Virus genome (UHGV): UHGV-0248979
Reading direction: 5' to 3' (one strand)
Length of the DNA: 64,000 nucleotides
From: a virus
Shown: positions 16,220 through 38,118 of the stretch, piece after piece
Position numbering within the stretch: the first letter of the stretch is position 1
Layout of the letters: each line of letters begins with the position of its first letter
Notes under the pieces: model-generated
Databases searched by the model: none
Seen by the model: only the letters and a program-made list of their open reading frames with translations
Told to the model about the DNA's origin: nothing
Translations under genes and position numbers: made by a program

Positions 16220-19200
16220 TTATTTAAGTGTCGCGGGTAAATCAGGCACAGCTTCCCCATCGAGTATACGCCCGATGAGAATCCCGGCTTGTTCACCTAC
16301 AGCATTCGCGGTACCGATACGTTGGATTGAACCTACGATACGCGCATCGACAGAATCACGACCGAACAACACGTCCAGGTCATCACCATCCTCTGTTTTG
16401 TTGTCGCCGTACATGACTTCTTGTACGGTGGTTTTTAGCTGGTTAGCAATAACCATCTTATCCGCAGCGGCCATCTCAACGTCGTGTGTAATAAAGAATC
16501 GAACACAAAGTGAGTTAAAGGCTAATGGTACACCTTCGACACGGTAGTCGCCGTTTACACTGCCTGAAACCGGATCGCCACGCCCGACTGCCAAAGCGGC
16601 TTTACGACGAATTCTGTCGTATTTACGCACCAGTTCAGCAAGGCTTGGTGTCATGTCTTCGGTTTCACCGTGATACACCACTTCGATCTTATCCACGATA
16701 CCACGTACCCCTGCACGAGGTGCGTACGAACTTAAACTTTGCAACGTTGCGGCTGCTTCCTGACTAAAGGCACTCATATCGCCTGTCAAGTCGTCAGTAA
16801 ACGTGCATAGGATTGTATCGACGTCTACGTGGTCTCCTTCATTCACGATTTCCAGAAGCATCTGGTTGCTGTTAATCGTTACTTCTTTCAGCTTTGTTAC
16901 CTGCCCCACCATTTTCTTCGCGAACCGTTCAGAAATTGCGTTGGAGTCTTCGATAACTTCTTCAGCTTCTAATAAAGCAACGGTGGCCAGCACCCCGTTT
17001 TTCCAGGAAACCTGAGTAGGATCGTAAATATCAGGTTCAAAGTGTTGCTCGTTGTACGTAATCACTGCTCCGGCCGGGAGCTTATCACCGGCTTTCCAGC
17101 GTGTTACCAAGGTGTGCGGATAGAAGGTACCTTCGTGGGGGCCGAACCAGCGCCCTAGAGGAAAGGCTTCTTTACTTCCATCTTCGTACGTAATTTCAAT
17201 GTGGTCTTTCGACAGACCAGTAATCTTACCTGCTTTATCAATAACGCGTGCATGTTTCACCGAAGTACGGTGTGCGACGAATTTCTCCTGTTCAGTACGA
17301 TACGGGGTTGTGGTTGCCCCATTACAACTGGTGGCAGAACCTAACTGAATCCCAACGAAGTTTTGACGCTTTGCGTCGTCCATTAACGTATCTGGTACTA
17401 ACCCGTCAATAAACGAAAGGGTGTCGCTTGGTTTCGGGGTTTTCTCTTCACGTTTAAACGTAGTACCGTCAACGGTGTCAAAACGTGGGTTATTGGTGAC
17501 GAAAGCAGTAATACCTACGTCCCCGTTATCTACGGTGTTACCCGAGACTATCCCGATATCGCTGGGTTGGAATTCACGCGTGTGGTGGACCATCGTTTTA
17601 CGATTACGACCGCCTGTACCCCCCATCGTAATAACGTCTTTTTCTTTAATCGACTGAATAGGGTTAGCGCCTGGTGCCAAAAGTACCGACGGGTCGGAGT
17701 TAATTGCACCCCAAACCATGTCTTGCGTCAGTTCGAACTTACGGTTACTACCCGGTGCGTTATTGTAGTTACGCATCGCTCTGACCATCGCGGTATAGAT
17801 GTGGTAGGCAATCCTCTGATTTCCTAAGAACATCATTTCGTCGCCGTTAATCTCTGGTAAAGAGTGGTCAGTTTGTAACAGTTCGTTAGAACGTTCCAGC
17901 AATCCAATAAAGGTTTCCGGTTCACCCATTTTCCTGAGGATACGTGCGTGCATGTCGTCAACAAACGCGGACCGCATCTGTTTCAGCTCGTTGATGTACC
18001 GTGGTGTTAGGCCATCTGCATCACGTAATAAGTTCAGGTAAATGTCTTCACGGTCTGCTTCTGATTCGGTATAAGCAACCAGGTGTTTGAGATAGCGATC
18101 CAAACCATGCAGAATCATCTTCTGTTGATCGTTATCGCAAGTAACTAAAAGTTTACAGTCTTGTAGTCGAATAATGCTGTCGTAGGCATTCTTATCAACA
18201 CGTTGCCCTGCAGGAACCAACTCGTATTGGATACCGAAATGTTTCAACATTCCTTGGAGTCCAAGATAGAACGAGAAGATAAAACCAAGCGACAAAGATT
18301 TACCCATCAAAGACAGCTCGGTCATTTCGCGAGGCACCTTCTGGCTATTAAAGCCCAGTACCTCTGCGATAGTTCCCACTGGCTCAACTTTGTTTCCGTT
18401 CACACCGTAAAGCATGGATTTGTCATCCATTGCCAGGATTGTTTCACTACGCGGACGTTTCGCCACCGGCAGAAGTTTGGCAGCATCGGCGTCTCTGAGC
18501 TGCTCGTCGTTAAAGAAGTTAACGGCTTCTTTGTAGTCGAAGTTCCACATATAGCCGTTTGCATTAAAGCTGGCAATACGGCGTGCAATCTCCGTATACT
18601 GACGTGGCAGATGTTGCGTAGGATCGAACACATTTGCTAAACGTGCATCGGTGACTTCGGTGTTTGTCGGATCAACAGCACGTGTGATAATCGCGTTGGT
18701 TAACCAACGACCGTAATCGTTCGCGACCTTATCACTACGACGAACAAAGTTTTTACCGTAAGCGGTAGTCAGTGCGACTGTATCCGGTGCAACTTTACGA
18801 ATCGGTAAGTCCACACGTTGTCGACGCATGGTGTATTCGACACCGTTAGCTACCCAAGTACCGTCCTCGGTCAAGCCTGGGATGGAGAAGCGAACGGTTG
18901 TTGGTTCACCGCCGACCGGCTGAACACGTAAAGTGTGGTGTTCGATAGTCCCTGTAACAGAAACTTCTTTTTCCACCGTGTGGTTGTGAACTGCCAGACC
19001 CAAACGTTGTGAACTGGCGACCGCCGCCAGCACGTCCTTGGTCATCATGGTCTGGTTGTACTGTTTCACCATCTGGTCAGTGACGTTCTCTGCCCACCCT
19101 TCGTCGGTAACAAGCCGCTGAACTTTTTTCGGTTCAGCTTTAACGACGATATCCTTTTCGTGAACAGTAAGTGCTTCTCCGTAGGTTTCTTTCGGGTTAT

Positions 19201-20386
19201 ACGGGTTAGGCAGCTGAACGAAACGTTTAGACGATTCAGACAGGAACTGATATGCTTTAGAACTTAAGCGGCCCGCTTCAGCTAAGCGTTGTGCTTCCTG
19301 TTTAATAATTTCGTCATGCGGAATGACTTTCTCGACAACAATTGTCGTCGGTTTAACGTCTTCCTTCGGTTCTTCAATAACAACGTCTTCTTTTTCATCG
19401 AAGGTGTTATCGGATTCCACCACAGCGTCATTAACAACGTCATCGTCGTCGACAACATCAACGGTTTCTTCTTCGACGTCTTTAAGGAAAACACGTTCGT
19501 CACCTTCAGGCGTTAGGAACTCCGCTTCGTACGCGTTAGACGGTGCTTGTGTCATTACACGCACCAGCGTACGGTAGAACATCCGCGCCATTTGGTCGTC
19601 ACTTAAACGGCCGCCGGACGATTTACGCATTTTCTCTACAACACCCATGTTCATGGACGTAAAGCCCGTGTTGTGGGTGAAGATAAAGTTCATTCGTGAC
19701 AGCTGAGTTAAATCCATTCCCGCGAATAAGGAATCAGATTGTTTTCCATAAGCCCAAGCAAACAATTCTAATAACCACAGCAAGTTGAAGTCCTGGAACT
19801 TCTCAATCTTGCTCTTAACACGGTCGTTATAGGTTGTTTGAAACTTCTGGAACGAAGGCAATGTCGAACCCAGTTCAATAACGAAATAGTTCTGACGCAT
19901 GTATTCTTGCGTGTCGTATTTGAACTGGTTAATCATCAATAGTTGGATGTTACGCAATCTATCGTACCAGGCTAACTGGGTGTCAGGATAGTAGTAGTGC
20001 GATAACATCGGCGTGTAGTTCTCGATCAGGAGAACTTTTAAGTCTTTGCGAACCAGTTCGTCTGAGGTAAGACGACGCATCGGACGGTTTGCACGGTGGT
20101 AGGCAAAGATAGCACGTTCTTGTCCCTGTACAGGTTTGTTACGAGGATTCCCACTAATACCGTCTTCCGGTAATTTAAAGTGGTGGCGAACCTGCGCAGG
20201 TTTTTCTAACGGTTGAATAATTTCAAGCGTTGCAGGCGGTGCTAATACCACCTGGTCGAGATCAATGACGTGGAGTACAGAACCACGCGGTATCTGTAGC
20301 TTCTCGAGCGGGATAATCCTCGGATTACCAAACTCGTCGGTTTTGCGCACCGAGAAGCGTTGGTTAAACTGTTTAATGAGCAGCAT
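16220..20386 (-). CDS. large hypothetical protein, 1388 aa; candidate partner subunit of a non-canonical RNA polymerase
   Basis: Very long ORF directly downstream of the DYDGD-motif gene; internal acidic low-complexity stretch; no canonical motif confirmed. Confidence 0.6.
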   Translation of the reverse strand: MLLIKQFNQRFSVRKTDEFGNPRIIPLEKLQIPRGSVLHVIDLDQVVLAPPATLEIIQPLEKPAQVRHHFKLPEDGISGNPRNKPVQGQERAIFAYHRANRPMRRLTSDELVRKDLKVLLIENYTPMLSHYYYPDTQLAWYDRLRNIQLLMINQFKYDTQEYMRQNYFVIELGSTLPSFQKFQTTYNDRVKSKIEKFQDFNLLWLLELFAWAYGKQSDSLFAGMDLTQLSRMNFIFTHNTGFTSMNMGVVEKMRKSSGGRLSDDQMARMFYRTLVRVMTQAPSNAYEAEFLTPEGDERVFLKDVEEETVDVVDDDDVVNDAVVESDNTFDEKEDVVIEEPKEDVKPTTIVVEKVIPHDEIIKQEAQRLAEAGRLSSKAYQFLSESSKRFVQLPNPYNPKETYGEALTVHEKDIVVKAEPKKVQRLVTDEGWAENVTDQMVKQYNQTMMTKDVLAAVASSQRLGLAVHNHTVEKEVSVTGTIEHHTLRVQPVGGEPTTVRFSIPGLTEDGTWVANGVEYTMRRQRVDLPIRKVAPDTVALTTAYGKNFVRRSDKVANDYGRWLTNAIITRAVDPTNTEVTDARLANVFDPTQHLPRQYTEIARRIASFNANGYMWNFDYKEAVNFFNDEQLRDADAAKLLPVAKRPRSETILAMDDKSMLYGVNGNKVEPVGTIAEVLGFNSQKVPREMTELSLMGKSLSLGFIFSFYLGLQGMLKHFGIQYELVPAGQRVDKNAYDSIIRLQDCKLLVTCDNDQQKMILHGLDRYLKHLVAYTESEADREDIYLNLLRDADGLTPRYINELKQMRSAFVDDMHARILRKMGEPETFIGLLERSNELLQTDHSLPEINGDEMMFLGNQRIAYHIYTAMVRAMRNYNNAPGSNRKFELTQDMVWGAINSDPSVLLAPGANPIQSIKEKDVITMGGTGGRNRKTMVHHTREFQPSDIGIVSGNTVDNGDVGITAFVTNNPRFDTVDGTTFKREEKTPKPSDTLSFIDGLVPDTLMDDAKRQNFVGIQLGSATSCNGATTTPYRTEQEKFVAHRTSVKHARVIDKAGKITGLSKDHIEITYEDGSKEAFPLGRWFGPHEGTFYPHTLVTRWKAGDKLPAGAVITYNEQHFEPDIYDPTQVSWKNGVLATVALLEAEEVIEDSNAISERFAKKMVGQVTKLKEVTINSNQMLLEIVNEGDHVDVDTILCTFTDDLTGDMSAFSQEAAATLQSLSSYAPRAGVRGIVDKIEVVYHGETEDMTPSLAELVRKYDRIRRKAALAVGRGDPVSGSVNGDYRVEGVPLAFNSLCVRFFITHDVEMAAADKMVIANQLKTTVQEVMYGDNKTEDGDDLDVLFGRDSVDARIVGSIQRIGTANAVGEQAGILIGRILDGEAVPDLPATLK

Positions 20387-20395
20387 TGCTTAGCC

Positions 20396-22015
20396 TTATG
20401 GGTTCTTTAATAACGCTTGCGTTGCACGTTTAATCACGTTGTTGATGGGATTGATTTTAAAGTTCCCATCAGAATCGAACCAGTAGTTTTTCGAGTGTAT
20501 CCAGTTCCGGTTTTCCTCGAGCGCTTCCTGGGACATAGGCGCGTTAAACGAGCCGGTATCACCGTCATAGTCACCCCCTAAGCCACCTAAGCGTGAAGGG
20601 TGTGGTGCCATAGACTCAACGAAGGTAGGAACCGACCGGTCAGGGTAGCTGATAGCCCCTCGGGGTTTTTCAGTTTCCCAGTCATCTTCCAGTTCTTTTA
20701 AATATAAAGATGACGTGGTGGTCTCCAATCTTATGGTCGATGAATACGTCGAGCCTCGGCCTGTAACGGGATAACGTGTAACGAAACCGAAATAATCGTT
20801 CCAAAGTTCGTAGCCCGACAAATAAAGCAATTCGACGAGTGTCATACCGTGAACGAATTTTCGGTCAAACGTTTTAGGAAGTTCTTCAATATCGTAGAAC
20901 ACCTTAAAATGTTTGGTGTCTTGGTAAACCAACGCAATGTAGTGGGTGTCATCCAACATAATCGGCTGATGGCGAAGCTCGCGAGCTTCCATTCGGTTGA
21001 TTAAGGATTCAATCCCATCGTCGGTGGTAAAGGTGTCGTATACACGACCACCTACTTCCAAGAATTCACGTTTAAGGGTTTTGGTGTTTACGCCGTAAAG
21101 GTTGCCATCACCAGCACGGATGTTACCGAGGTAACGTTCACGTATTTGGTACTGCGCAACAGGGAGTAATGCTTTTAAACCCTGGTATAAGCCAATTTTG
21201 GTGTCGGTAGGACGAATAGCGTCTTCACGACCCATGCATTTAGACCCCGTCGAGAACGAGGACAATACGTTACGTGTCCCGTTCATTAATTTACGAGACG
21301 TCACTTTACGACGTTGGAAACCCCCTTTACCATCTTGGATGTTAAAGAAATACATCCAGATATCATTGAAGGTTTGTTGAAGTTTCCAGCGTACGGGGTT
21401 AGTTAATTCGACACGGGTTGCTCGGTCAGGGATTGCCCTGGCGAGAGATACCAACCGACGATACATCCCACCGATTTCTTCTTCTTGCTCTCTGCCATCT
21501 TGCCGAATTACTAAATCGCGTAAACCCGCGGGTAACACGAGAACGTATCGACTAAGACTGACGGGGCGGAATTTCAAAAAGAAATCCACGGTTTCGTCAC
21601 GCTGTAGGGACTCGTTACGCTTAGGTTTTAAATCGTTATAGTGACTGAGGAAGAAGTTAAAACCGGTATCTGCGCCTGGGTCTCCCGGCAAGGCCGGTTC
21701 GAAATCTTTTTCTTTTTCGCTCCACGTTGCGTAGCGTTTTCCAGAACAAATTTCTTCGTAGAGTTGTTTGAGTTGGAATAACGCCAAACACACTGTCGGC
21801 GAAATGATATCGAGCTTAATATCGATATAAGAGAATGTAGAGTCTCGCGCTTCACTACCCGTGAGTCCAAAAATCTCTGTAGAGTAAAGACCTTCGGGGT
21901 GAAAGTTTTTTGTTAACCCCTGGAAAGTATCCGTGGTCGTGACGGGTCGTAATCGCGACACAAGAGACTTGTTTACATTGAGCAGATAAAAGTCAACCCA
22001 ATTAAGTTTATTCAC
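20396..22015 (-). CDS. protein with DxDGD (DYDGD) motif; candidate RNAP beta-prime-like N-terminal fragment
   Basis: GTG start with AGGAGAT SD; ...RYPVTGRGSTYSS... and ...LGGLGGDYDGDTGSFNAPMS... near C-terminus resemble YSGRSV and NADFDGD of RpoC. Confidence 0.6.
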   Translation of the reverse strand: MNKLNWVDFYLLNVNKSLVSRLRPVTTTDTFQGLTKNFHPEGLYSTEIFGLTGSEARDSTFSYIDIKLDIISPTVCLALFQLKQLYEEICSGKRYATWSEKEKDFEPALPGDPGADTGFNFFLSHYNDLKPKRNESLQRDETVDFFLKFRPVSLSRYVLVLPAGLRDLVIRQDGREQEEEIGGMYRRLVSLARAIPDRATRVELTNPVRWKLQQTFNDIWMYFFNIQDGKGGFQRRKVTSRKLMNGTRNVLSSFSTGSKCMGREDAIRPTDTKIGLYQGLKALLPVAQYQIRERYLGNIRAGDGNLYGVNTKTLKREFLEVGGRVYDTFTTDDGIESLINRMEARELRHQPIMLDDTHYIALVYQDTKHFKVFYDIEELPKTFDRKFVHGMTLVELLYLSGYELWNDYFGFVTRYPVTGRGSTYSSTIRLETTTSSLYLKELEDDWETEKPRGAISYPDRSVPTFVESMAPHPSRLGGLGGDYDGDTGSFNAPMSQEALEENRNWIHSKNYWFDSDGNFKINPINNVIKRATQALLKNP

Positions 22016-32034: not shown

Positions 32035-32058
32035 ACCTACCTCCGAAGGGAGGTAGGT
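32035..32058. terminator. bidirectional intrinsic terminator hairpin
   Basis: acctacctcc / gaag / ggaggtaggt with long A-run upstream and T-run downstream between convergent genes. Confidence 0.7.
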
Positions 32059-32066
32059 GCTTTTAT

Positions 32067-32924
32067 TTATTTCGCCAAGTCTGCTTCTTTTACAAAGATG
32101 CCGTCGGCGTTCAGGTAACCTTTACGGTCTTTGATTTCATGCCAGGCTAAAGAGAAGCAATGGCGAATATCCAATTTATAATACAAGGCGATACGAGCAA
32201 GATGGGCTAAACCCAGGCTAACGAAATCGAAACCATGATCTTTACCTTCCATAAAGGTTGTGGCAAAACTTTCAATAGCGTGAAGGTATTGTTGATGTGG
32301 GTATCCAGCGTTGTTTAAATTTTCTTCAACTTCAGCTACATCTTCCACGTCTAAGCGTAGACCAGACTCGATGCAGTCTTCTGCCACTGTAAGGTAACCA
32401 GAATTCGCATCCCCTAATTCGATGATGTTTACCAGAACCACCAACGCATCGCCGATACCATCCATGATCATTTCAGGTTTGTTTTTACTGATGCCCGCCG
32501 CAATTTCACCTAACTCTTCAAAGAACTTCGTGATTTGGGTTTCCAGTTTGCCGTTATCGAGAATCCCACGTTCTTTAGACCAACCTTTAACGAGTTTTAC
32601 ACATTTTGCGATCGTGCAAACTAGAACAGATTCTGTATGCATTACCGTACCGTTATAAACGGCATCGGTAAGCTTAATAGGCGCTACAATCGTTTCAATA
32701 TCCAGTTCTTGATTACCGGTGTGGCGTTTACCTTCTACACGAATACGGCTGGTACCAGGGTTTACACCAATTGTGTAAATAGCGTCGAACTGTACTGCAT
32801 TCTCATTCAGAGCGCGCAGTTGCGCGTTAACTTCTTCCAGGTGTTGGCCAGGATTAACCACGATGTTGTAAATAGTGTTGATGTCAAAACGTTCGCCCAT
32901 TTTAAACTCCATTAGATTAAACAA
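32067..32924 (-). CDS. MazG-like nucleotide pyrophosphohydrolase domain protein
   Basis: ...ITKFFEELGEIAAG...DGIGDALVVLVNIIE... resembles the EExxE / DxxD metal-binding helices of MazG-type all-alpha NTP pyrophosphatases. Confidence 0.45.
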   Translation of the reverse strand: MFNLMEFKMGERFDINTIYNIVVNPGQHLEEVNAQLRALNENAVQFDAIYTIGVNPGTSRIRVEGKRHTGNQELDIETIVAPIKLTDAVYNGTVMHTESVLVCTIAKCVKLVKGWSKERGILDNGKLETQITKFFEELGEIAAGISKNKPEMIMDGIGDALVVLVNIIELGDANSGYLTVAEDCIESGLRLDVEDVAEVEENLNNAGYPHQQYLHAIESFATTFMEGKDHGFDFVSLGLAHLARIALYYKLDIRHCFSLAWHEIKDRKGYLNADGIFVKEADLAK

Positions 32925-32969: not shown

Positions 32970-33113
32970 TTAAATTTTGCAAGCCCCGCCTGAGCAGTTA
33001 TCGTCTTCCGTAGTTGGGTCAGCACCCTTCTCTACGGTTGCTTCTGGGTCTAAGCCAGGGATTGCAAATTCGTCAGTTTCTTTAACGGTTTCTACTTTAA
33101 CTTCTTCAGTCAT
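32970..33113 (-). CDS. small acidic peptide, 47 aa (below the ORF-track cutoff)
   Basis: Hand-translated: MTEEVKVETVKETDEFAIPGLDPEATVEKGADPTTEDDNCSGGACKI; terminator hairpin immediately downstream; weak SD. Confidence 0.3.
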   Translation of the reverse strand: MTEEVKVETVKETDEFAIPGLDPEATVEKGADPTTEDDNCSGGACKI

Positions 33114-33155
33114 TTTAGTTCCCAAATTTCTTACAAAGGTGTTAGCAGTTTTGAT

Positions 33156-33338
33156 TTAACGATGGCGAATGTGAGACAGAAGCAGGCCCATCCGTAATGG
33201 AACTGTCGCTGTCATTGCCTTTTTATACTGCACAGTGCGTACTTTCGATTTACCAGGTCCCTTACGTACGCGGTTGTAGCCAATAAAATATAGAGTACCT
33301 GTAAAGAATCTGAGGTTATGAAAATATGGCTTCTTCAT
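33156..33338 (-). CDS. small basic protein, 60 aa
   Basis: Strong SD (GAAGGAGGAACA-ATG); start overlaps stop of upstream small ORF (ATGA). Confidence 0.45.
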   Translation of the reverse strand: MKKPYFHNLRFFTGTLYFIGYNRVRKGPGKSKVRTVQYKKAMTATVPLRMGLLLSHIRHR

Positions 33339-33508
33339 TGTTCCTCCTTCTCGAATGGGTTAGCTTCAAGGAACTTGGAATAAGAAAATTGAATTACTTG
33401 GAAACGTTTACGTCCTTTACGTGGCCCTTTGCACCAACGTGTAACAATGGTACGGAACTTCTTCGGCTCGAAATACGTTATCGTGAAATTAAGAACATCG
33501 TCCAACAT
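33335..33508 (-). CDS. small basic protein, 57 aa (below the ORF-track cutoff)
   Basis: Hand-translated MLDDVLNFTITYFEPKKFRTIVTRWCKGPRKGRKRF...; stop overlaps next start. Confidence 0.3.
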   Translation of the reverse strand: MLDDVLNFTITYFEPKKFRTIVTRWCKGPRKGRKRFQVIQFSYSKFLEANPFEKEEQ

Positions 33509-33947: not shown

Positions 33948-34118
33948 TCAGTAAGGTCGGATTATAACCTTTTCGAAGTATTTATAAATAAATACCTTCT
34001 TGTTTTGATGTTTTCTTGGACCTTTCTTGATACGAGAGATCAAAATACGATCGATGTAACATTCTTTTATAACACGTCTTCTAGGAATGTAACAGGGAAC
34101 CGCCTCTAATTCTTCCAT
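33948..34118 (-). CDS. possible small basic protein, 56 aa, in an otherwise 216-bp gap
   Basis: Hand-translated MEELEAVPCYIPRRRVIKECYIDRILISRIKKGPRKHQNKK...; weak SD. Confidence 0.2.
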   Translation of the reverse strand: MEELEAVPCYIPRRRVIKECYIDRILISRIKKGPRKHQNKKVFIYKYFEKVIIRPY

Positions 34119-34135
34119 AGAACTAACCCCACTGA

Positions 34136-34582
34136 TTAACCCATTAAATGTATTACGACGTCTTTAGTTACTGAGTTTGCTAGTAAGCGGAAAAACTTCA
34201 TGTAACGGAAAATGCTAAAGAAAACCCCAGCGTCGTCTACAATAACAAGGCTGTATTTTTCTTTTTCTGTACCCATCTGATAACCGATGATTTGTGTGAT
34301 ATTCTCCGGTAAGTCTTCGAGACCCAAACGGAATAGCACATCGTCCTCTAAGAACCCTTTTGGATTAACGAATAATACCTTCCCTTTATGGTTCTTAGCT
34401 AACTCGACACCGAAGTCTGTAAGTCCTGTCTGCCTGCCCGTACCGTAACGAATAGTTCGAAATTCAGATAAGGCTTTGGGACCATAACGATCGGTAAACG
34501 GATTATCTTTGGAATCCAGATCAGTTAAACCTTTTGATAATTCTTCTACTACGATGTTATAGTTAACATGAGTTTTAGACAT
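34136..34582 (-). CDS. hypothetical protein, 148 aa
   Basis: ORF in operon. Confidence 0.5.
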   Translation of the reverse strand: MSKTHVNYNIVVEELSKGLTDLDSKDNPFTDRYGPKALSEFRTIRYGTGRQTGLTDFGVELAKNHKGKVLFVNPKGFLEDDVLFRLGLEDLPENITQIIGYQMGTEKEKYSLVIVDDAGVFFSIFRYMKFFRLLANSVTKDVVIHLMG

Positions 34583-34639: not shown

Positions 34640-34936
34640 TTACTGAAAATCACGTTTAGCCTTGCTAATGATTTGAGATATTCGGCTTGGCGTCACCCCG
34701 TGTATTTCGGCCAATTTCTTGTTACTTAGGCCACCCAATTTACCAACAAGAATGTTTAATAGACGCAAGTCTTTTAACGTTGCCGAAATCTTTTCTAAGA
34801 TCTCGATATCGTCTTGATCAAACTTACCTTTGGTCTGCAAAGCTATCCCAGCACGCTCGGTAATAGTTTTTAGCTCAGCTAATCGACTAATGCCGAAAGA
34901 AGTTAACTCCACGTACGATTTCTCATTAATCATCAT
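34640..34936 (-). CDS. small HTH protein resembling sigma-70 region 4
   Basis: C-terminal ...LSNKKLAEIHGVTPSRISQIISKAKRDFQ resembles sigma region 4.2 / LuxR-type HTH. Confidence 0.45.
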   Translation of the reverse strand: MMINEKSYVELTSFGISRLAELKTITERAGIALQTKGKFDQDDIEILEKISATLKDLRLLNILVGKLGGLSNKKLAEIHGVTPSRISQIISKAKRDFQ

Positions 34937-34943
34937 GTACCCC

Positions 34944-35978
34944 TTAGACAGCTATGGGAGCTTTAATTGTGTCGTGTGATTGATACCCAACCAATTCGAA
35001 GTCTTCGTATTTGTAATCGAAGATAGAATCAGGTTTACGTTTGATAACCAGTTTAGGTAGCGGGTAAGGTTCGCGAGTAAGTTGAAGTTTTGCCTGCTCC
35101 AGATGGTTAGAGTAAAGATGAACGTCTACACCACTATAAACCAACTCGTCTGGAACCATATTCAACTGCTGTGCAATCATGTGGGTTAGCAACGCGTACG
35201 AAGCGACGTTAAACGGCGCGCCAAGTAGGTAATCGTTGCTCCGCATCATGTAAAAACATGAAAGCTTACGGCGTGGAATACCTTCACGATCTAAAGTTTC
35301 ATGAAGACGTTCTTCATCATCAATATCTTCGTGATTAATAAGCGGTGCGCTCGCAAATTTTTCCGGCTCGTTTATTTCGTACCAATCCAGTCGCTCAAGC
35401 AGTGTCATTTCTGTAGTGTAGAATTGGAAATAGTTGTGGCATGGGTTAAGTGCCATATCGTCCAGGTCACCTACATTCCAGGCACTAACAATAATACGAC
35501 GGGAGTCAGGGTCTTCACGAAGTTGTTGGATAACTTTACTGATCTGGTCATGTGCTTTCTCATAGACCAAATACGTCGTACCATCTTCCTTCATATTCCC
35601 AATATACTTGTAACCCCGCTGCATTAGTTGTTGTGTACGTCTTACGTCATGACACTCCACAACTTTACAGTCACGCCATTCGCGCCACTGTTTACCATAA
35701 ACTGGTCCTAAGTTCCCCTCCTCGTCACTCCATTCGTTCCAAATTTTTACCCCGTTCTCTTGCAGGTACTTCACGTTAGTGTCACCATTTAAGAACCACA
35801 GCAGTTCATGAATGATACTTTTCAGGTGAACCTTTTTCGTAGTAACTAATGGGAAACCTTCTTTTAGGTCGAAACGTAGTTGGCGACCAAATACAGAAAG
35901 TGTCCCTACGCCTGTACGGTCTTTCTTGACAACACCGTTATCTAGAATGTCTTGCATTAACGCTAAATACTGTTTCAT
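34944..35978 (-). CDS. thyA: thymidylate synthase (ThyA) with two insertions
   Basis: [15 protein letters not shown]...[12 protein letters not shown]...GPVYGKQWR...[14 protein letters not shown]...[10 protein letters not shown]...HLYSNH... nearly colinear with E. coli ThyA, including the catalytic Cys. Confidence 0.9.
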
Positions 35979-36292
35979 TTGTTATTCTCCATACGTTTCG
36001 TTAAAATGTCTAAATTACGTTGCGCTTGCTCAGGACTAAAAATAATGTTTTCCTGGCTATACGTTACATGGAAATGTTTTTTGTTAACAATCTCAACCTT
36101 AAGGCCACGAACTTCGAATTGCCGTTTAGCCTCTTCAACCTTTTTTGGTGAGATTCTAAGAAGACCTGGAAATAGTTCGTCTGCAGGAACGTAGTATTTG
36201 ATTTCCTTAGTTTCGGGAATTAATTCGATCCTATCTAAACTGACGCTTATGATTTCGTCAATCTTTTTCTTTATATTGTCGTTCACAGTCAT
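35975..36292 (-). CDS. hypothetical protein, 105 aa
   Basis: ORF overlapping thyA start by 4 nt. Confidence 0.45.
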
Positions 36293-36600
36293 CAGATTTT
36301 GTCCTTTTCGAGTTCAGTTAAAATTTCAAACAGGTCTGCGTTGGACTGCAGTACGATTTCACTGCCTTCTGCTACAACAGTAATTAAAGGCTTCTTACCA
36401 CGTAGCAAGAACTCCCAACGCATTGTTCTTACGTGGCTGTCGAGTAACTGTTTTAATTTGTGGTTAACTTCAACTTCCAATTTGCCCAGTAACTGTGGTG
36501 TAATGCTTTCACCTGAGTTTTTGTTATAAAGTGTACGCACTAAAGAACGTAAAGAATAGCCAATGCACTGCGAAATTGCCCAACCCGAATAGTTTTCCAT
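36292..36600 (-). CDS. hypothetical protein, 102 aa
   Basis: ORF overlapping the next gene by 1 nt. Confidence 0.45.
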   Translation of the reverse strand: MENYSGWAISQCIGYSLRSLVRTLYNKNSGESITPQLLGKLEVEVNHKLKQLLDSHVRTMRWEFLLRGKKPLITVVAEGSEIVLQSNADLFEILTELEKDKI

Positions 36601-36601
36601 G

Positions 36602-37147
36602 TTAATCCTTCAAAATGTCTTTAAGTTTTAGTTTTGTATAGAACGGAGAACTACTTAGTTCTTCTGTCCAACTTATACGTCCGTTCTGTAGAACCCGGTC
36701 GAAGATTAGGCCGTTCATCTTTATAATTCTGGCCAATTGATAAAAGAGCGTCGCGAGATGTAGACGTCGCTCCATTTGTGCGCGAGCGGTACAACTTCGT
36801 ACCGCTTTGATAGCAAGTACCGCTTCTGGCATCAACGTAACCGCGATTGACTCAGAATGTTCGTTTTTCCATTTCTTAATGGCTAGTAGTCGGTGTAGTG
36901 ATTTTTCAAGGGGACGTAAATCCCCGTTATTCATCACGTAAACTAGAGCAGCAATATCCCACAAGGCGTTACCCACCGCTTTAGCAACAAACAACCCGTC
37001 GTGTGATGTCGTGGATTCACAGACTTTGCCAATACTTCCATAAACACGTGCAGTCCATGCGTCTGTCTGTTCGCCGGGTTTTATACCCGCGTTATCCAGA
37101 AAGTGTTTAAACGCATTAACGTGATCAGTTAACTGTATTTGTTTCAT
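36602..37147 (-). CDS. hypothetical protein, 181 aa
   Basis: ORF in operon. Confidence 0.5.
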   Translation of the reverse strand: MKQIQLTDHVNAFKHFLDNAGIKPGEQTDAWTARVYGSIGKVCESTTSHDGLFVAKAVGNALWDIAALVYVMNNGDLRPLEKSLHRLLAIKKWKNEHSESIAVTLMPEAVLAIKAVRSCTARAQMERRLHLATLFYQLARIIKMNGLIFDRVLQNGRISWTEELSSSPFYTKLKLKDILKD

Positions 37148-38055: not shown

Positions 38056-38087
38056 GATAATTCTCCTTTAGGGTAAAAAATGAAAAT

Positions 38088-38113
38088 ACCCTACTCCTGT
38101 CTAGGAGTAGGGT
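38088..38113 (-). terminator. intrinsic terminator hairpin
   Basis: accctactcct / gtcta / ggagtagggt; T-run follows on minus strand. Confidence 0.55.
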
Positions 38114-38118
38114 AGGTA

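What the first reader, a model, noticed from the sequence alone, without database searches (positions are those of the whole stretch)
34640..34936. Small sigma-70 region-4-like HTH protein immediately upstream of thyA
Seen: C-terminal ...LGGLSNKKLAEIHGVTPSRISQIISKAKRDFQ resembles sigma-70 region 4.2 / LuxR-type helix-turn-helix. The protein is only 98 aa, too short for a complete sigma factor. Inference: a transcription regulator or a sigma-mimic/anti-sigma-like host-takeover factor. This is notable if the phage also encodes its own RNAP.
Basis: partly seen in the sequence, partly recalled or inferred. Interest (0 to 1): 0.45.

Follow-up and report, generated by a model that had tools for sequence, protein, structure and literature searches.

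The report
Small jumbo-phage helix-turn-helix DNA-binding protein
A real, conserved 98-residue gene just after thyA in a giant phage encodes a long helical hairpin followed by a DNA-binding helix-turn-helix that resembles the last domain of bacterial sigma factors; it is most likely an accessory transcription regulator of unknown target, and nothing shows that it mimics sigma.

Summary
The ORF at 34640-34936 (minus strand, 98 aa) is real: dN/dS is 0.11 against an 88%-identical homologue, and its place after thyA is kept in a 60%-identical relative. It lies 3' of thyA in the direction of transcription, not upstream. The window comes from an SPN3US/phiEaH2-like jumbo phage that carries its own multisubunit RNA polymerase genes.

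The family is tiny: 46 clusters among 5.8 billion proteins. Every member whose genomic setting could be read lies in a phiKZ-like jumbo phage, once fused to another domain and once in an array of paralogues.

Best reading: an accessory, probably dimeric, sequence-specific DNA-binding regulator, similar in layout to phage Mu Mor/C. A sigma-mimic role is not excluded but has no support. It is a new small family of a known kind, of modest interest.

The parts
34640..34936 (-). Gene for the 98-aa protein (stop codon included): helical hairpin plus C-terminal HTH
   Evidence: ORF listing. dN/dS 0.11 against L012. Identical protein indexed in 83 blocks of the assembly collection, 25 of which hold contigs of 0.2-1 Mb; the three shown are about 225 kb. 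AF2 pLDDT 91.
34940..34945 (-). Shine-Dalgarno-like AAGGGG, 3 nt before the ATG and overlapping the last two bases of the thyA stop codon (TAA, 34944-34946)
   Evidence: Read directly from the sequence: the minus strand reads ...GTC TAA GGGGTAC ATG ATG. The tight spacing suggests translational coupling with thyA (inference).
34829..34924 (-). Helix 1 (residues 5-36), first arm of the antiparallel hairpin
   Evidence: AF2/DSSP. Hydrophobic positions conserved at 3-4 spacing: L11, L19, L22, I25, A29, L33.
34736..34816 (-). Helix 2 (residues 41-67). It is the second arm of the hairpin, and its C-terminal part (about 55-67) is the first helix of the three-helix HTH domain, matching sigma region 4.1.
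   Evidence: AF2. TIGR02937 alignment of residues 39-95 to model positions 103-159. Conserved L54, L57, L60, I62, L63.
34700..34723 (-). Helix 3 (residues 72-79), positioning helix of the HTH; A76 is invariant and G69 just before it is invariant
34646..34690 (-). Helix 4 (residues 83-97), predicted recognition helix carrying the family motif R-I-S-Q-I; R85 and Q88 are invariant or nearly so
   Evidence: The helix aligns to the ...GRISQIL... recognition helix of WhiG.
34944..35978 (-). thyA (thymidylate synthase), the gene immediately 5' in the same transcription direction
   Evidence: Pfam PF00303, E 3.8e-110. The order thyA then HTH gene is kept in L008 and L012.
34136..34582 (-). Next gene downstream (148 aa, phrog_2586, function unknown); homologue of SPN3US gp033 and phiEaH2 gp152; absent from some otherwise near-identical genomes
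38087..38114 (-). Strong terminator-like hairpin (12-bp stem followed by a T-run) that probably marks the upstream limit of the transcription unit containing thyA and the HTH gene
   Evidence: consensus match only
32035..32058 (.). Bidirectional terminator-like hairpin after mazG, the probable downstream limit of the same leftward gene run
   Evidence: consensus match only

Best explanation
The gene encodes a small basic protein (pI 9.5) made of two modules.

- Residues 5-67 form a long antiparallel two-helix hairpin.
- The C-terminal end of the second helix, together with helices 72-79 and 83-97, forms a compact three-helix helix-turn-helix of the sigma-70 region 4 / LuxR class.

Proposed mechanism, all of it inferred:
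1. Two copies pair through the hairpins into a four-helix bundle.
2. The pair presents two recognition helices, carrying the invariant R85 and Q88, to a repeated or palindromic DNA site.
3. Binding changes transcription of a small set of genes during infection. The targets could be on the phage genome, read by the phage's own RNA polymerases, or on the host chromosome.

The gene is read as part of the leftward run of genes from about 38.1 kb to 32.0 kb that includes thyA and mazG, and is probably translationally coupled to thyA.

It is an accessory, lineage-specific factor and not part of the core transcription machinery. It is not a sigma factor.
For: Shown:
- Real, constrained gene: dN/dS 0.11.
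- Position after thyA conserved in a 60%-identical relative on a 237-kb contig and in an 88%-identical one.
- Confident model with an HTH: pLDDT 91 for the whole protein and 96 for the domain.
- Foldseek aligns 46 columns to a sigmaA region 4 chimera at 0.6 A rmsd, though with a non-significant E-value of 1.8.
- Repeated sub-threshold profile hits to region 4 of sigma families and to LuxR/GerE across independent members.
- The strongest conservation in the whole family lies in the HTH: G69, A76, R85, Q88 and the R-I-S-Q-I motif.
- The HTH segment is basic, with pI 10.5.

Context:
- Iyer et al. report that 92% of jumbo phages encode their own HTH transcription factors, and suggest that RNAP-encoding ('group 1') phages may use them with their own polymerases (PMC7824862).
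- The module is portable. It is fused to an unrelated 130-aa domain in Klebsiella jumbo phages and occurs as arrays of paralogues in L009 and L017. This is typical of specificity-diversifying DNA binders.
Against: - No DNA target was found. There is no convincing palindrome or repeated motif near the operon.
- Dimerisation is not shown. Conserved hydrophobic positions in helix 2 form only a single a/d stripe, and no multimer modelling was possible.
- No curated family threshold is reached.
- In nucleus-forming phages a DNA-binding protein must be imported to reach phage DNA. Nothing is known about where this protein localises.
- The gene is absent from close relatives of the phage (SPN3US, phiEaH2, Goslar), so any regulatory role is dispensable for the phage type.
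- Sitting in a nucleotide-metabolism operon says nothing about function.
Confidence: 0.55

Rival explanations
1. Stand-alone sigma-region-4 mimic that works through protein contacts. It would dock on the beta-flap (SBHM) of the host or a phage RNA polymerase, or titrate a factor that binds sigma region 4. Either way it would redirect or shut off transcription.
For: - In structural alignments the highest sequence identities are to sigma region 4 (23-32%).
- The best NCBIfam hits are sigma families: TIGR02937 and FliA/WhiG.
- Every member whose genomic setting could be read is in a jumbo phage with its own multisubunit RNAP.
- In the Klebsiella-type phages the paralogue array lies about 6.5 kb from an RNAP beta-subunit gene and a helicase gene.
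- Precedents: T4 gp33 binds the beta-flap (described in PMC7824862), and some RNAP-containing jumbo phages carry host-takeover factors (PMC13282480).
Against: - All sigma hits are below cut-offs.
- Fold similarity is just as good to DeoR, HetR, terminase, resolvase and LuxR HTH domains.
- The most conserved residues are the DNA-facing R85 and Q88 in the recognition helix, not an obvious flap-binding patch.
- PhiKZ-type phages do not need host RNAP, and their nvRNAP has a permanently bound sigma-like gp68 occupying the region-4 site (PMC7618050).
- The gene is missing from SPN3US, phiEaH2 and Goslar.
Confidence: 0.12
2. DNA-binding protein with a role other than transcription. Examples are coating or silencing the host nucleoid, or acting as an accessory DNA-recognition subunit for recombination, packaging or a mobile element. 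In those cases the HTH would serve as a targeting module, as in small terminases or serine recombinases.
For: - The gene sits in a variable stretch between thyA and mazG whose content differs even between near-identical genomes.
- In L008 the neighbouring thyA is interrupted, which hints at mobile-element activity at this locus.
- The HTH regulator gp094 of the nucleus-forming phage RAY stays outside the phage nucleus and binds host DNA (PMC10299810).
Against: - No nuclease, recombinase or terminase domain is present in the protein or fused to it. The C-terminal domain fused to it in Klebsiella phages has no family match.
- The domain order (hairpin then HTH) is the reverse of small terminases.
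- The family is not conserved across phiKZ-like phages, as a packaging factor would be.
Confidence: 0.2
3. Aca-like autorepressor: a small dimeric HTH placed in an accessory or anti-defence operon to damp that operon's own strong early promoter.
For: - Small size, HTH fold and location among short, variable genes of unknown function.
- Paralogue arrays lie among hypothetical small genes in L009, L016 and L017.
Against: - The conserved partner is thyA, a housekeeping nucleotide enzyme.
- No PADLOC hits in the neighbourhood.
- No inverted-repeat operator at the probable operon start.
- No similarity to known Aca families was detected in the Pfam or PHROG scans.
Confidence: 0.08
4. Spurious or decaying ORF with a chance HTH-like motif.
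For: No family reaches a curated threshold.
Against: - dN/dS 0.11.
- 46 clusters of about 100 aa with the same architecture.
- Synteny conserved at 60% identity.
- Very confident AF2 models.
Confidence: 0.02

Closest known systems
Region 4 (4.1-4.2) of sigma-70 family factors, especially sigma-28 FliA/WhiG (Pfam PF04545/PF08281; NCBIfam TIGR02937, TIGR02479)
   Same: - Three-helix HTH core that superposes at 0.9-1.3 A with 23-32% identity.
- The motif ...G-L-x-x-x-x-(L/I)-A-E-I-x-x-(V/L)-(S/T)-x-x-R-(I/V)-S-Q-I aligns with ...GLTLREIGKALGLTEGRISQIL... of WhiG.
- The similarity extends about 57 residues, into the 4.1 helix.
   Different: - No region 2 or 3, so there can be no core binding or -10 recognition.
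- The N-terminus is an unrelated helical hairpin.
- Scores are below every curated cut-off (17 against 24.1 bits; 22 against 42.9 bits).
- Contact with the beta-flap is untested.
LuxR/GerE-type effector domains (NarL, FixJ, EvgA, RcsB, DosR, TraR; Pfam PF00196)
   Same: - One homologue carries a faint precomputed GerE hit.
- An L009 paralogue scores 20.3 bits against GerE.
   Different: - The fourth helix that follows the recognition helix in LuxR-type domains (and mediates dimerisation, from my knowledge of those structures) is absent. The protein ends at residue 98, just after the recognition helix.
- No receiver or ligand domain.
- The window protein does not reach the GerE threshold.
Phage Mu Mor and C transcription activators (PDB 1rr7, 9l0x)
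   Same: - Small phage-encoded proteins.
- From my knowledge of their published structures, they have an N-terminal helical dimerisation module followed by a C-terminal HTH, the same layout as here.
- They are the best functional analogy for the layout.
   Different: - The Pfam scan, listing all families up to E = 1, returned no Mor-family hit.
- Mor and C work with host RNAP, whereas this phage type is thought to be independent of it.
- The hairpin here is far longer, about 30 residues per arm.
- Dimerisation is not shown.
PhiKZ nvRNAP subunit gp68 (C-terminal domain) and AR9 gp226, the sigma-like specificity subunits of jumbo-phage RNAPs
   Same: Jumbo-phage proteins whose C-terminal domain is described as corresponding to sigma region 4 (PMC7618050).
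   Different: - Those are proteins of about 500 aa, permanently embedded in the polymerase and conserved across the phage group.
- This is a 98-aa accessory protein absent from SPN3US, phiEaH2 and Goslar.
- It was not compared directly with gp68 homologues.
RAY gp094, the XRE-type HTH regulator of a nucleus-forming Erwinia phage
   Same: A small HTH regulator encoded by a chimallivirus-type jumbo phage. It shows that such proteins can act on host DNA outside the phage nucleus (PMC10299810).
   Different: It belongs to a different HTH class (XRE/Cro-like) and no homology to this protein is claimed.

Membership tests
Sigma-70 family sigma factor | Region 2 (core binding and -10 recognition) is present | tested here: not met
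   The protein has only 98 aa. Residues 1-67 form a two-helix hairpin. Sigma-model hits cover only the region-4 end of the models: positions 103-159 of 165 in TIGR02937 and 191-215 of 224 in FliA_WhiG.
Sigma-70 family sigma factor | Region 4 domain scores above the curated thresholds of Pfam Sigma70_r4 / r4_2 or NCBIfam | tested here: not met
   Sigma70_r4 17.0 bits against 24.1. Sigma70_r4_2 14.1 against 25.7. TIGR02937 22 against 42.9. Ten of 13 members give sub-threshold hits, best E 1.2e-4.
Sigma-70 region 4 / LuxR HTH fold class | Three-helix HTH core that superposes on solved region 4 and GerE domains | tested here: met
   [not shown]
Sigma-70 region 4 (function) | Binds the RNAP beta-flap tip helix | not testable with these tools
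   No complex modelling or interaction assay was available.
Sigma-70 region 4 (function) | Conserved DNA-contacting residues in the recognition helix | tested here: inconclusive
   R85 and Q88 are invariant or nearly so. They align with the R and Q of the ...RISQ... stretch in the WhiG recognition helix. That these positions contact the -35 element in sigma factors is from my own knowledge and was not tested here.
LuxR/GerE family (PF00196) | Four-helix domain with a helix after the recognition helix, and a score above the Pfam GerE threshold | tested here: not met
   The protein ends one residue after the recognition helix. GerE is not among the hits of the window protein. GerE appears only as a sub-threshold or faint hit in paralogues.
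Mor/C family of phage transcription activators | Sequence membership in the Pfam Mor family | tested here: not met
   [not shown]
Mor/C family of phage transcription activators | Homodimer through the N-terminal helices, with two HTH domains binding a dyad-symmetric site | not testable with these tools
   No multimer prediction was possible. Hydrophobic-stripe analysis was equivocal. No candidate dyad site was found.
XRE/Cro-type HTH (PF01381) | Five-helix Cro/cI-type domain, and a score above the HTH_3 threshold | tested here: not met
   HTH_3 18.5 bits against 23, covering only 26 residues. The model has a three-helix core, not a five-helix domain.
Known phage protein families (PHROGs v4) and defence-related families (PADLOC) | Significant hit to an existing family | tested here: not met
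   Best PHROG hit E 0.0021 over 23 residues. No PADLOC hit.

The most novel reading that the evidence does not exclude
The roughly 100-aa 'hairpin + sigma-region-4' proteins could be detachable promoter-specificity adaptors for the sigma-less multisubunit RNA polymerases of phiKZ-like jumbo phages. The region-4-like domain would read an upstream DNA element, while the hairpin docks on the polymerase, at the flap or in a channel. The lineage-specific arrays of paralogues in Klebsiella jumbo phages would then act like a set of alternative minimal sigma modules that switch gene classes.
Probability: 0.06. Interest if true: 0.8.

Novelty: new member of a known kind. Interest (0 to 1): 0.28.

Why it matters
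Nucleus-forming jumbo phages transcribe their genomes with their own sigma-less polymerases, and almost nothing is known about how they regulate individual genes beyond three promoter classes. This work defines a small, previously unannotated family of HTH proteins. Its members whose genomic setting could be read lie in these phages. The family has a confident structural model, a clear conserved recognition-helix motif (R-I-S-Q-I) and lineage-specific expansions. That gives experimentalists a concrete candidate to test whether accessory transcription factors act inside the phage nucleus, on the host chromosome, or on the polymerase itself. If it is simply one more accessory regulator, which is the likely outcome, the value is mainly better annotation.

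Tried and rejected
1. Split-gene idea. In Klebsiella phages LPKP23 and KpLz-2_45 the homologous module is the N-terminus of a 224-aa protein. I tested whether the window's downstream 148-aa ORF is the missing C-terminal half. It is not: BLASTP E 1.3. The fused domain has relatives only in L009 and L010 and none in the window.

2. Goslar gp134 (108 aa) looked similar by eye and in MAFFT, but hhalign gives probability 0.7%. Rejected as a relative. No protein in the thyA-to-mazG stretch of SPN3US or phiEaH2, or in the roughly 3.5 kb after thyA in Goslar, matches.

4. Operator search. Scans for repeats, promoters and terminators over 31-44 kb gave no credible dyad or repeated motif tied to the operon. 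Sigma-70-like promoter matches were fewer than in shuffled sequence, 13 against 23. There is almost no non-coding DNA to search; a rough greedy ORF map left about 3 kb of intergenic sequence in 64 kb.

5. Nucleotide search of the locus against 50,697 phage records found no match. Only protein-level relatives exist.

6. PADLOC scan of the gene and seven neighbours: nothing.

7. A possible secondary-channel (GreA/DksA-like) role for the hairpin was considered because of the acidic residues after the hairpin turn (D40, D42, D43). The conserved D/E at position 43 is equally well explained as a helix N-cap, and no Gre or DksA structure appeared among the hairpin matches. This was not pursued.

Full report
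**What is there**

The ORF listing shows an ATG-initiated ORF of 98 codons at 34640-34936 on the minus strand. The adjacent minus-strand gene at 34944-35978 is thymidylate synthase (Pfam PF00303, E 3.8e-110).

Read on the minus strand, the junction is ...GTC TAA GGGGTAC ATG ATG. The small gene therefore begins 7 nt after the thyA stop codon, and the Shine-Dalgarno-like AAGGGG overlaps the last two bases of that stop. It lies downstream of thyA in the direction of transcription, not upstream as the finding's title says.

It sits in a long run of leftward genes. The run is bounded by terminator-like hairpins at 38087-38114 and 32035-32058 and ends with a MazG-like gene at 32067-32924.

**The genome**

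The window belongs to a phiKZ-type jumbo phage close to the SPN3US/phiEaH2 group.
- The tail sheath is 80-81% identical to those phages, and a 539-aa RNAP subunit is up to 86% identical.
- The ORFs at 16220-20386 and 20396-22015 match PHROG families annotated as RNA polymerase beta subunits with E = 0 and 7e-234.
- There is no nucleotide-level match in 50,697 phage records.
- The identical 98-aa protein is indexed in 83 blocks of the assembly collection, 25 of which hold contigs of 0.2-1 Mb. The three places shown are ENA metagenome scaffolds of about 225 kb.

**Is it a real gene?**

Yes.
- Against the 88%-identical homologue in L012 there are 24.5 synonymous and 12.5 non-synonymous differences (dS 0.53, dN 0.057, ratio 0.11).
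- A 60%-identical homologue on a 236.9-kb JGI contig keeps the same place directly after thyA.
- The genes further downstream vary even between near-identical genomes, while this gene is retained.

**Structure**

AlphaFold2 with a 13-sequence family alignment gives mean pLDDT 91.3 and four helices: 5-36, 41-67, 72-79 and 83-97.
- The first two helices form a long antiparallel hairpin.
- The end of helix 2 together with helices 3 and 4 forms a compact three-helix HTH.
- Residues 44-98 modelled alone give the same domain with pLDDT 96.
- The protein is basic overall (pI 9.5), and the HTH segment has pI 10.5.

**What kind of HTH?**

No curated family threshold is reached, but the weak signals all point the same way.
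- Pfam: HTH_3 at 18.5 bits, Sigma70_r4 at 17.0 bits (cut-off 24.1) and Sigma70_r4_2 at 14.1 bits.
- Across 13 family members scanned separately, Sigma70_r4 is the family hit most often: 10 of 13, best E 1.2e-4.
- NCBIfam: the region-4 end of the sigma70-ECF superfamily model TIGR02937 is hit by the window protein (E 1e-4; residues 39-95 to model positions 103-159) and by five other members or paralogues, down to E 1.4e-6. FliA/WhiG is the usual second hit.
- A family profile searched against PDB sequences finds an archaeal HTH regulator (E 0.002), WhiG (E 0.005), then NarL, FixJ and several sigma factors.

The fold alone therefore does not separate sigma region 4 from other simple HTH domains. 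The highest sequence identities and the profile hits do favour the sigma region 4 / LuxR class.

Membership in either family fails on defining features. There is no sigma region 2. There is no helix after the recognition helix, as LuxR-type domains have. No threshold score is reached.

**The family**

The family is very small.
- A single-sequence scan of 1.84 billion representative proteins found 8 hits with E <= 0.001, of which about five are true relatives.
- A profile search of 5.8 billion proteins found 46 clusters. All but two are 96-109 aa, and none is named.
- Invariant or nearly invariant positions are G69, A76, R85 and Q88, all within the motif G-L-x4-(L/I)-A-E-I-x2-(V/L)-(S/T)-x2-R-I-S-Q-I. 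The strongest constraint is therefore on the HTH and its recognition helix.

Members with readable context lie in three lineages of jumbo phages.
- The clade of the window.
- Klebsiella phages of the KpLz-2_45/LPKP23 type. Related members of this group, KpZh_1 and KpXa_1, carry a phiKZ-like RNAP beta-subunit homologue at about 36% identity.
- Klebsiella phage Eowyn.

In the KpLz-2_45/LPKP23 group the module is fused to an unrelated 130-aa domain. In related metagenomic contigs it occurs as arrays of diverged paralogues. One of these reaches 23.9 bits on Sigma70_r4_2 against a 25.7-bit cut-off. The array lies a few kb from an RNAP beta-subunit gene and a helicase gene.

SPN3US, phiEaH2 and Goslar have no detectable homologue. 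An apparent Goslar relative was rejected.

**How it most likely works**

The following are shown:
- a constrained gene;
- a confident hairpin-plus-HTH fold;
- conservation concentrated in the recognition helix;
- a portable, expandable module;
- an accessory distribution among phages.

From these I infer that the protein binds DNA sequence-specifically through R85 and Q88 of helix 4. It probably acts as a dimer formed by the hairpins, and it probably tunes transcription of a few genes. The layout parallels the small phage Mu activators Mor and C, which also appear among the fold matches.

The literature fits this reading. Most jumbo phages encode their own HTH transcription factors, and those of RNAP-encoding phages have been proposed to work with the phage polymerases (PMC7824862). 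An HTH regulator of the nucleus-forming phage RAY binds host DNA outside the phage nucleus (PMC10299810).

I could not find a target site and could not test dimerisation (one search was equivocal). Confidence in this reading is about 0.55.

**The sigma-mimic idea**

This idea remains possible but has no support.
- PhiKZ development is independent of host transcription.
- Its non-virion polymerase already has a permanently attached sigma-like subunit, whose C-terminal domain is described as corresponding to region 4 (PMC7618050).
- The conserved residues here are the DNA-facing ones.
- The gene is dispensable in close relatives.

I give this reading about 0.12. A further 0.2 goes to non-transcriptional DNA-binding roles, such as nucleoid binding or a targeting subunit for recombination or packaging. 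Those roles are suggested by the terminase and resolvase fold matches and by the variable, possibly mobile, character of the locus.

**Novelty and interest**

This is a previously unannotated small family of a well-known kind of domain. It has a somewhat unusual long-hairpin N-terminus and an interesting restriction to jumbo phages that encode their own RNAP. A specialist would not be surprised by it.

The more exciting reading is that these proteins are detachable region-4-like specificity adaptors for sigma-less phage polymerases. My evidence does not exclude it, but I rate it at about 6%.

Noticed in passing
window 33156-33338 (-), 33335-33508 (-), 33948-34118 (-): Three small ORFs (60, 57 and 56 aa) between the HTH gene and mazG share a basic motif, K/R-G-P-(R/G)-K...VRKGPGKSKVR......CKGPRKGRKRF......KKGPRKHQNKK.... 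Goslar gp139 and gp137, in the equivalent region after thyA, carry the same motif. This looks like a family of paralogous mini-genes of unknown function.
   Followed up: no
L008 / L007 4094-5991 (JGI 3300011862 contig of 236.9 kb, and Logan SRR1749770): In the 60%-identical relative, thyA is called as two pieces (416 aa and 95 aa, both PF00303) separated by about 360 nt. This suggests an intron, a homing-endonuclease insertion or another interruption in thyA right next to the HTH gene.
   Followed up: no
L009 2931-6040; L017 8001-9026; L016 8001-8291: Relatives of the Klebsiella KpLz-2_45-type jumbo phages carry variable arrays of diverged paralogues of about 100-120 aa, each a hairpin plus a sigma-region-4-like HTH. 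One paralogue reaches 23.9 bits on Sigma70_r4_2 and another 20.3 bits on GerE. The arrays lie downstream of an RNAP beta-subunit gene, a helicase and a Macro-domain gene, and the number of copies differs between contigs.
   Followed up: partly
L001 5971-6645; L005 4929-5603 (Klebsiella phages LPKP23 and KpLz-2_45): The same HTH module is the N-terminal 95 aa of a 224-aa protein. Its C-terminal 130-aa domain matches no Pfam family and is related only to the C-terminus of a 200-aa protein in L009 and L010.
   Followed up: partly
window 36602-37147 (-) and 36292-36600 (-); also 32067-32924 (-): Two adjacent genes (181 and 102 aa) match the N-terminal and C-terminal halves of the same 299-position PHROG (phrog_10269). 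They therefore look like a split version of a single gene. The MazG-like protein also matches the N-terminal part of that PHROG.
   Followed up: no
window 34944-35978 (-): The phage ThyA has 344 aa against a 266-position Pfam model matched end to end. It therefore carries about 80 extra residues as insertions. The roughly 61-65%-identical ThyA proteins of SPN3US-like phages align over the full 344 residues.
   Followed up: no
window 32970-33125 (-): A 51-aa ORF ending ...DDNCSGGACKI is conserved with SPN3US gp032 and phiEaH2 gp153, which also end ...GGACKI. It is a small cysteine-containing protein kept just before mazG in all three phages.
   Followed up: no
P0011 (NCBI-sourced, 131 aa, 2,840-bp contig): This variant matches the HTH protein up to ...RISQII and then continues as [14 protein letters not shown].... 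That continuation is the translation of the opposite strand near the gene start (the + strand ORF at 34830-34979). It looks like a fold-back chimeric assembly, not a real longer isoform.
   Followed up: no
window 34136-34582 (-) compared with L013 and L012: The 148-aa gene (phrog_2586) directly after the HTH gene is missing or replaced by short ORFs in otherwise near-identical genomes. The stretch from the HTH gene to mazG is thus a hot spot of gene turnover.
   Followed up: partly
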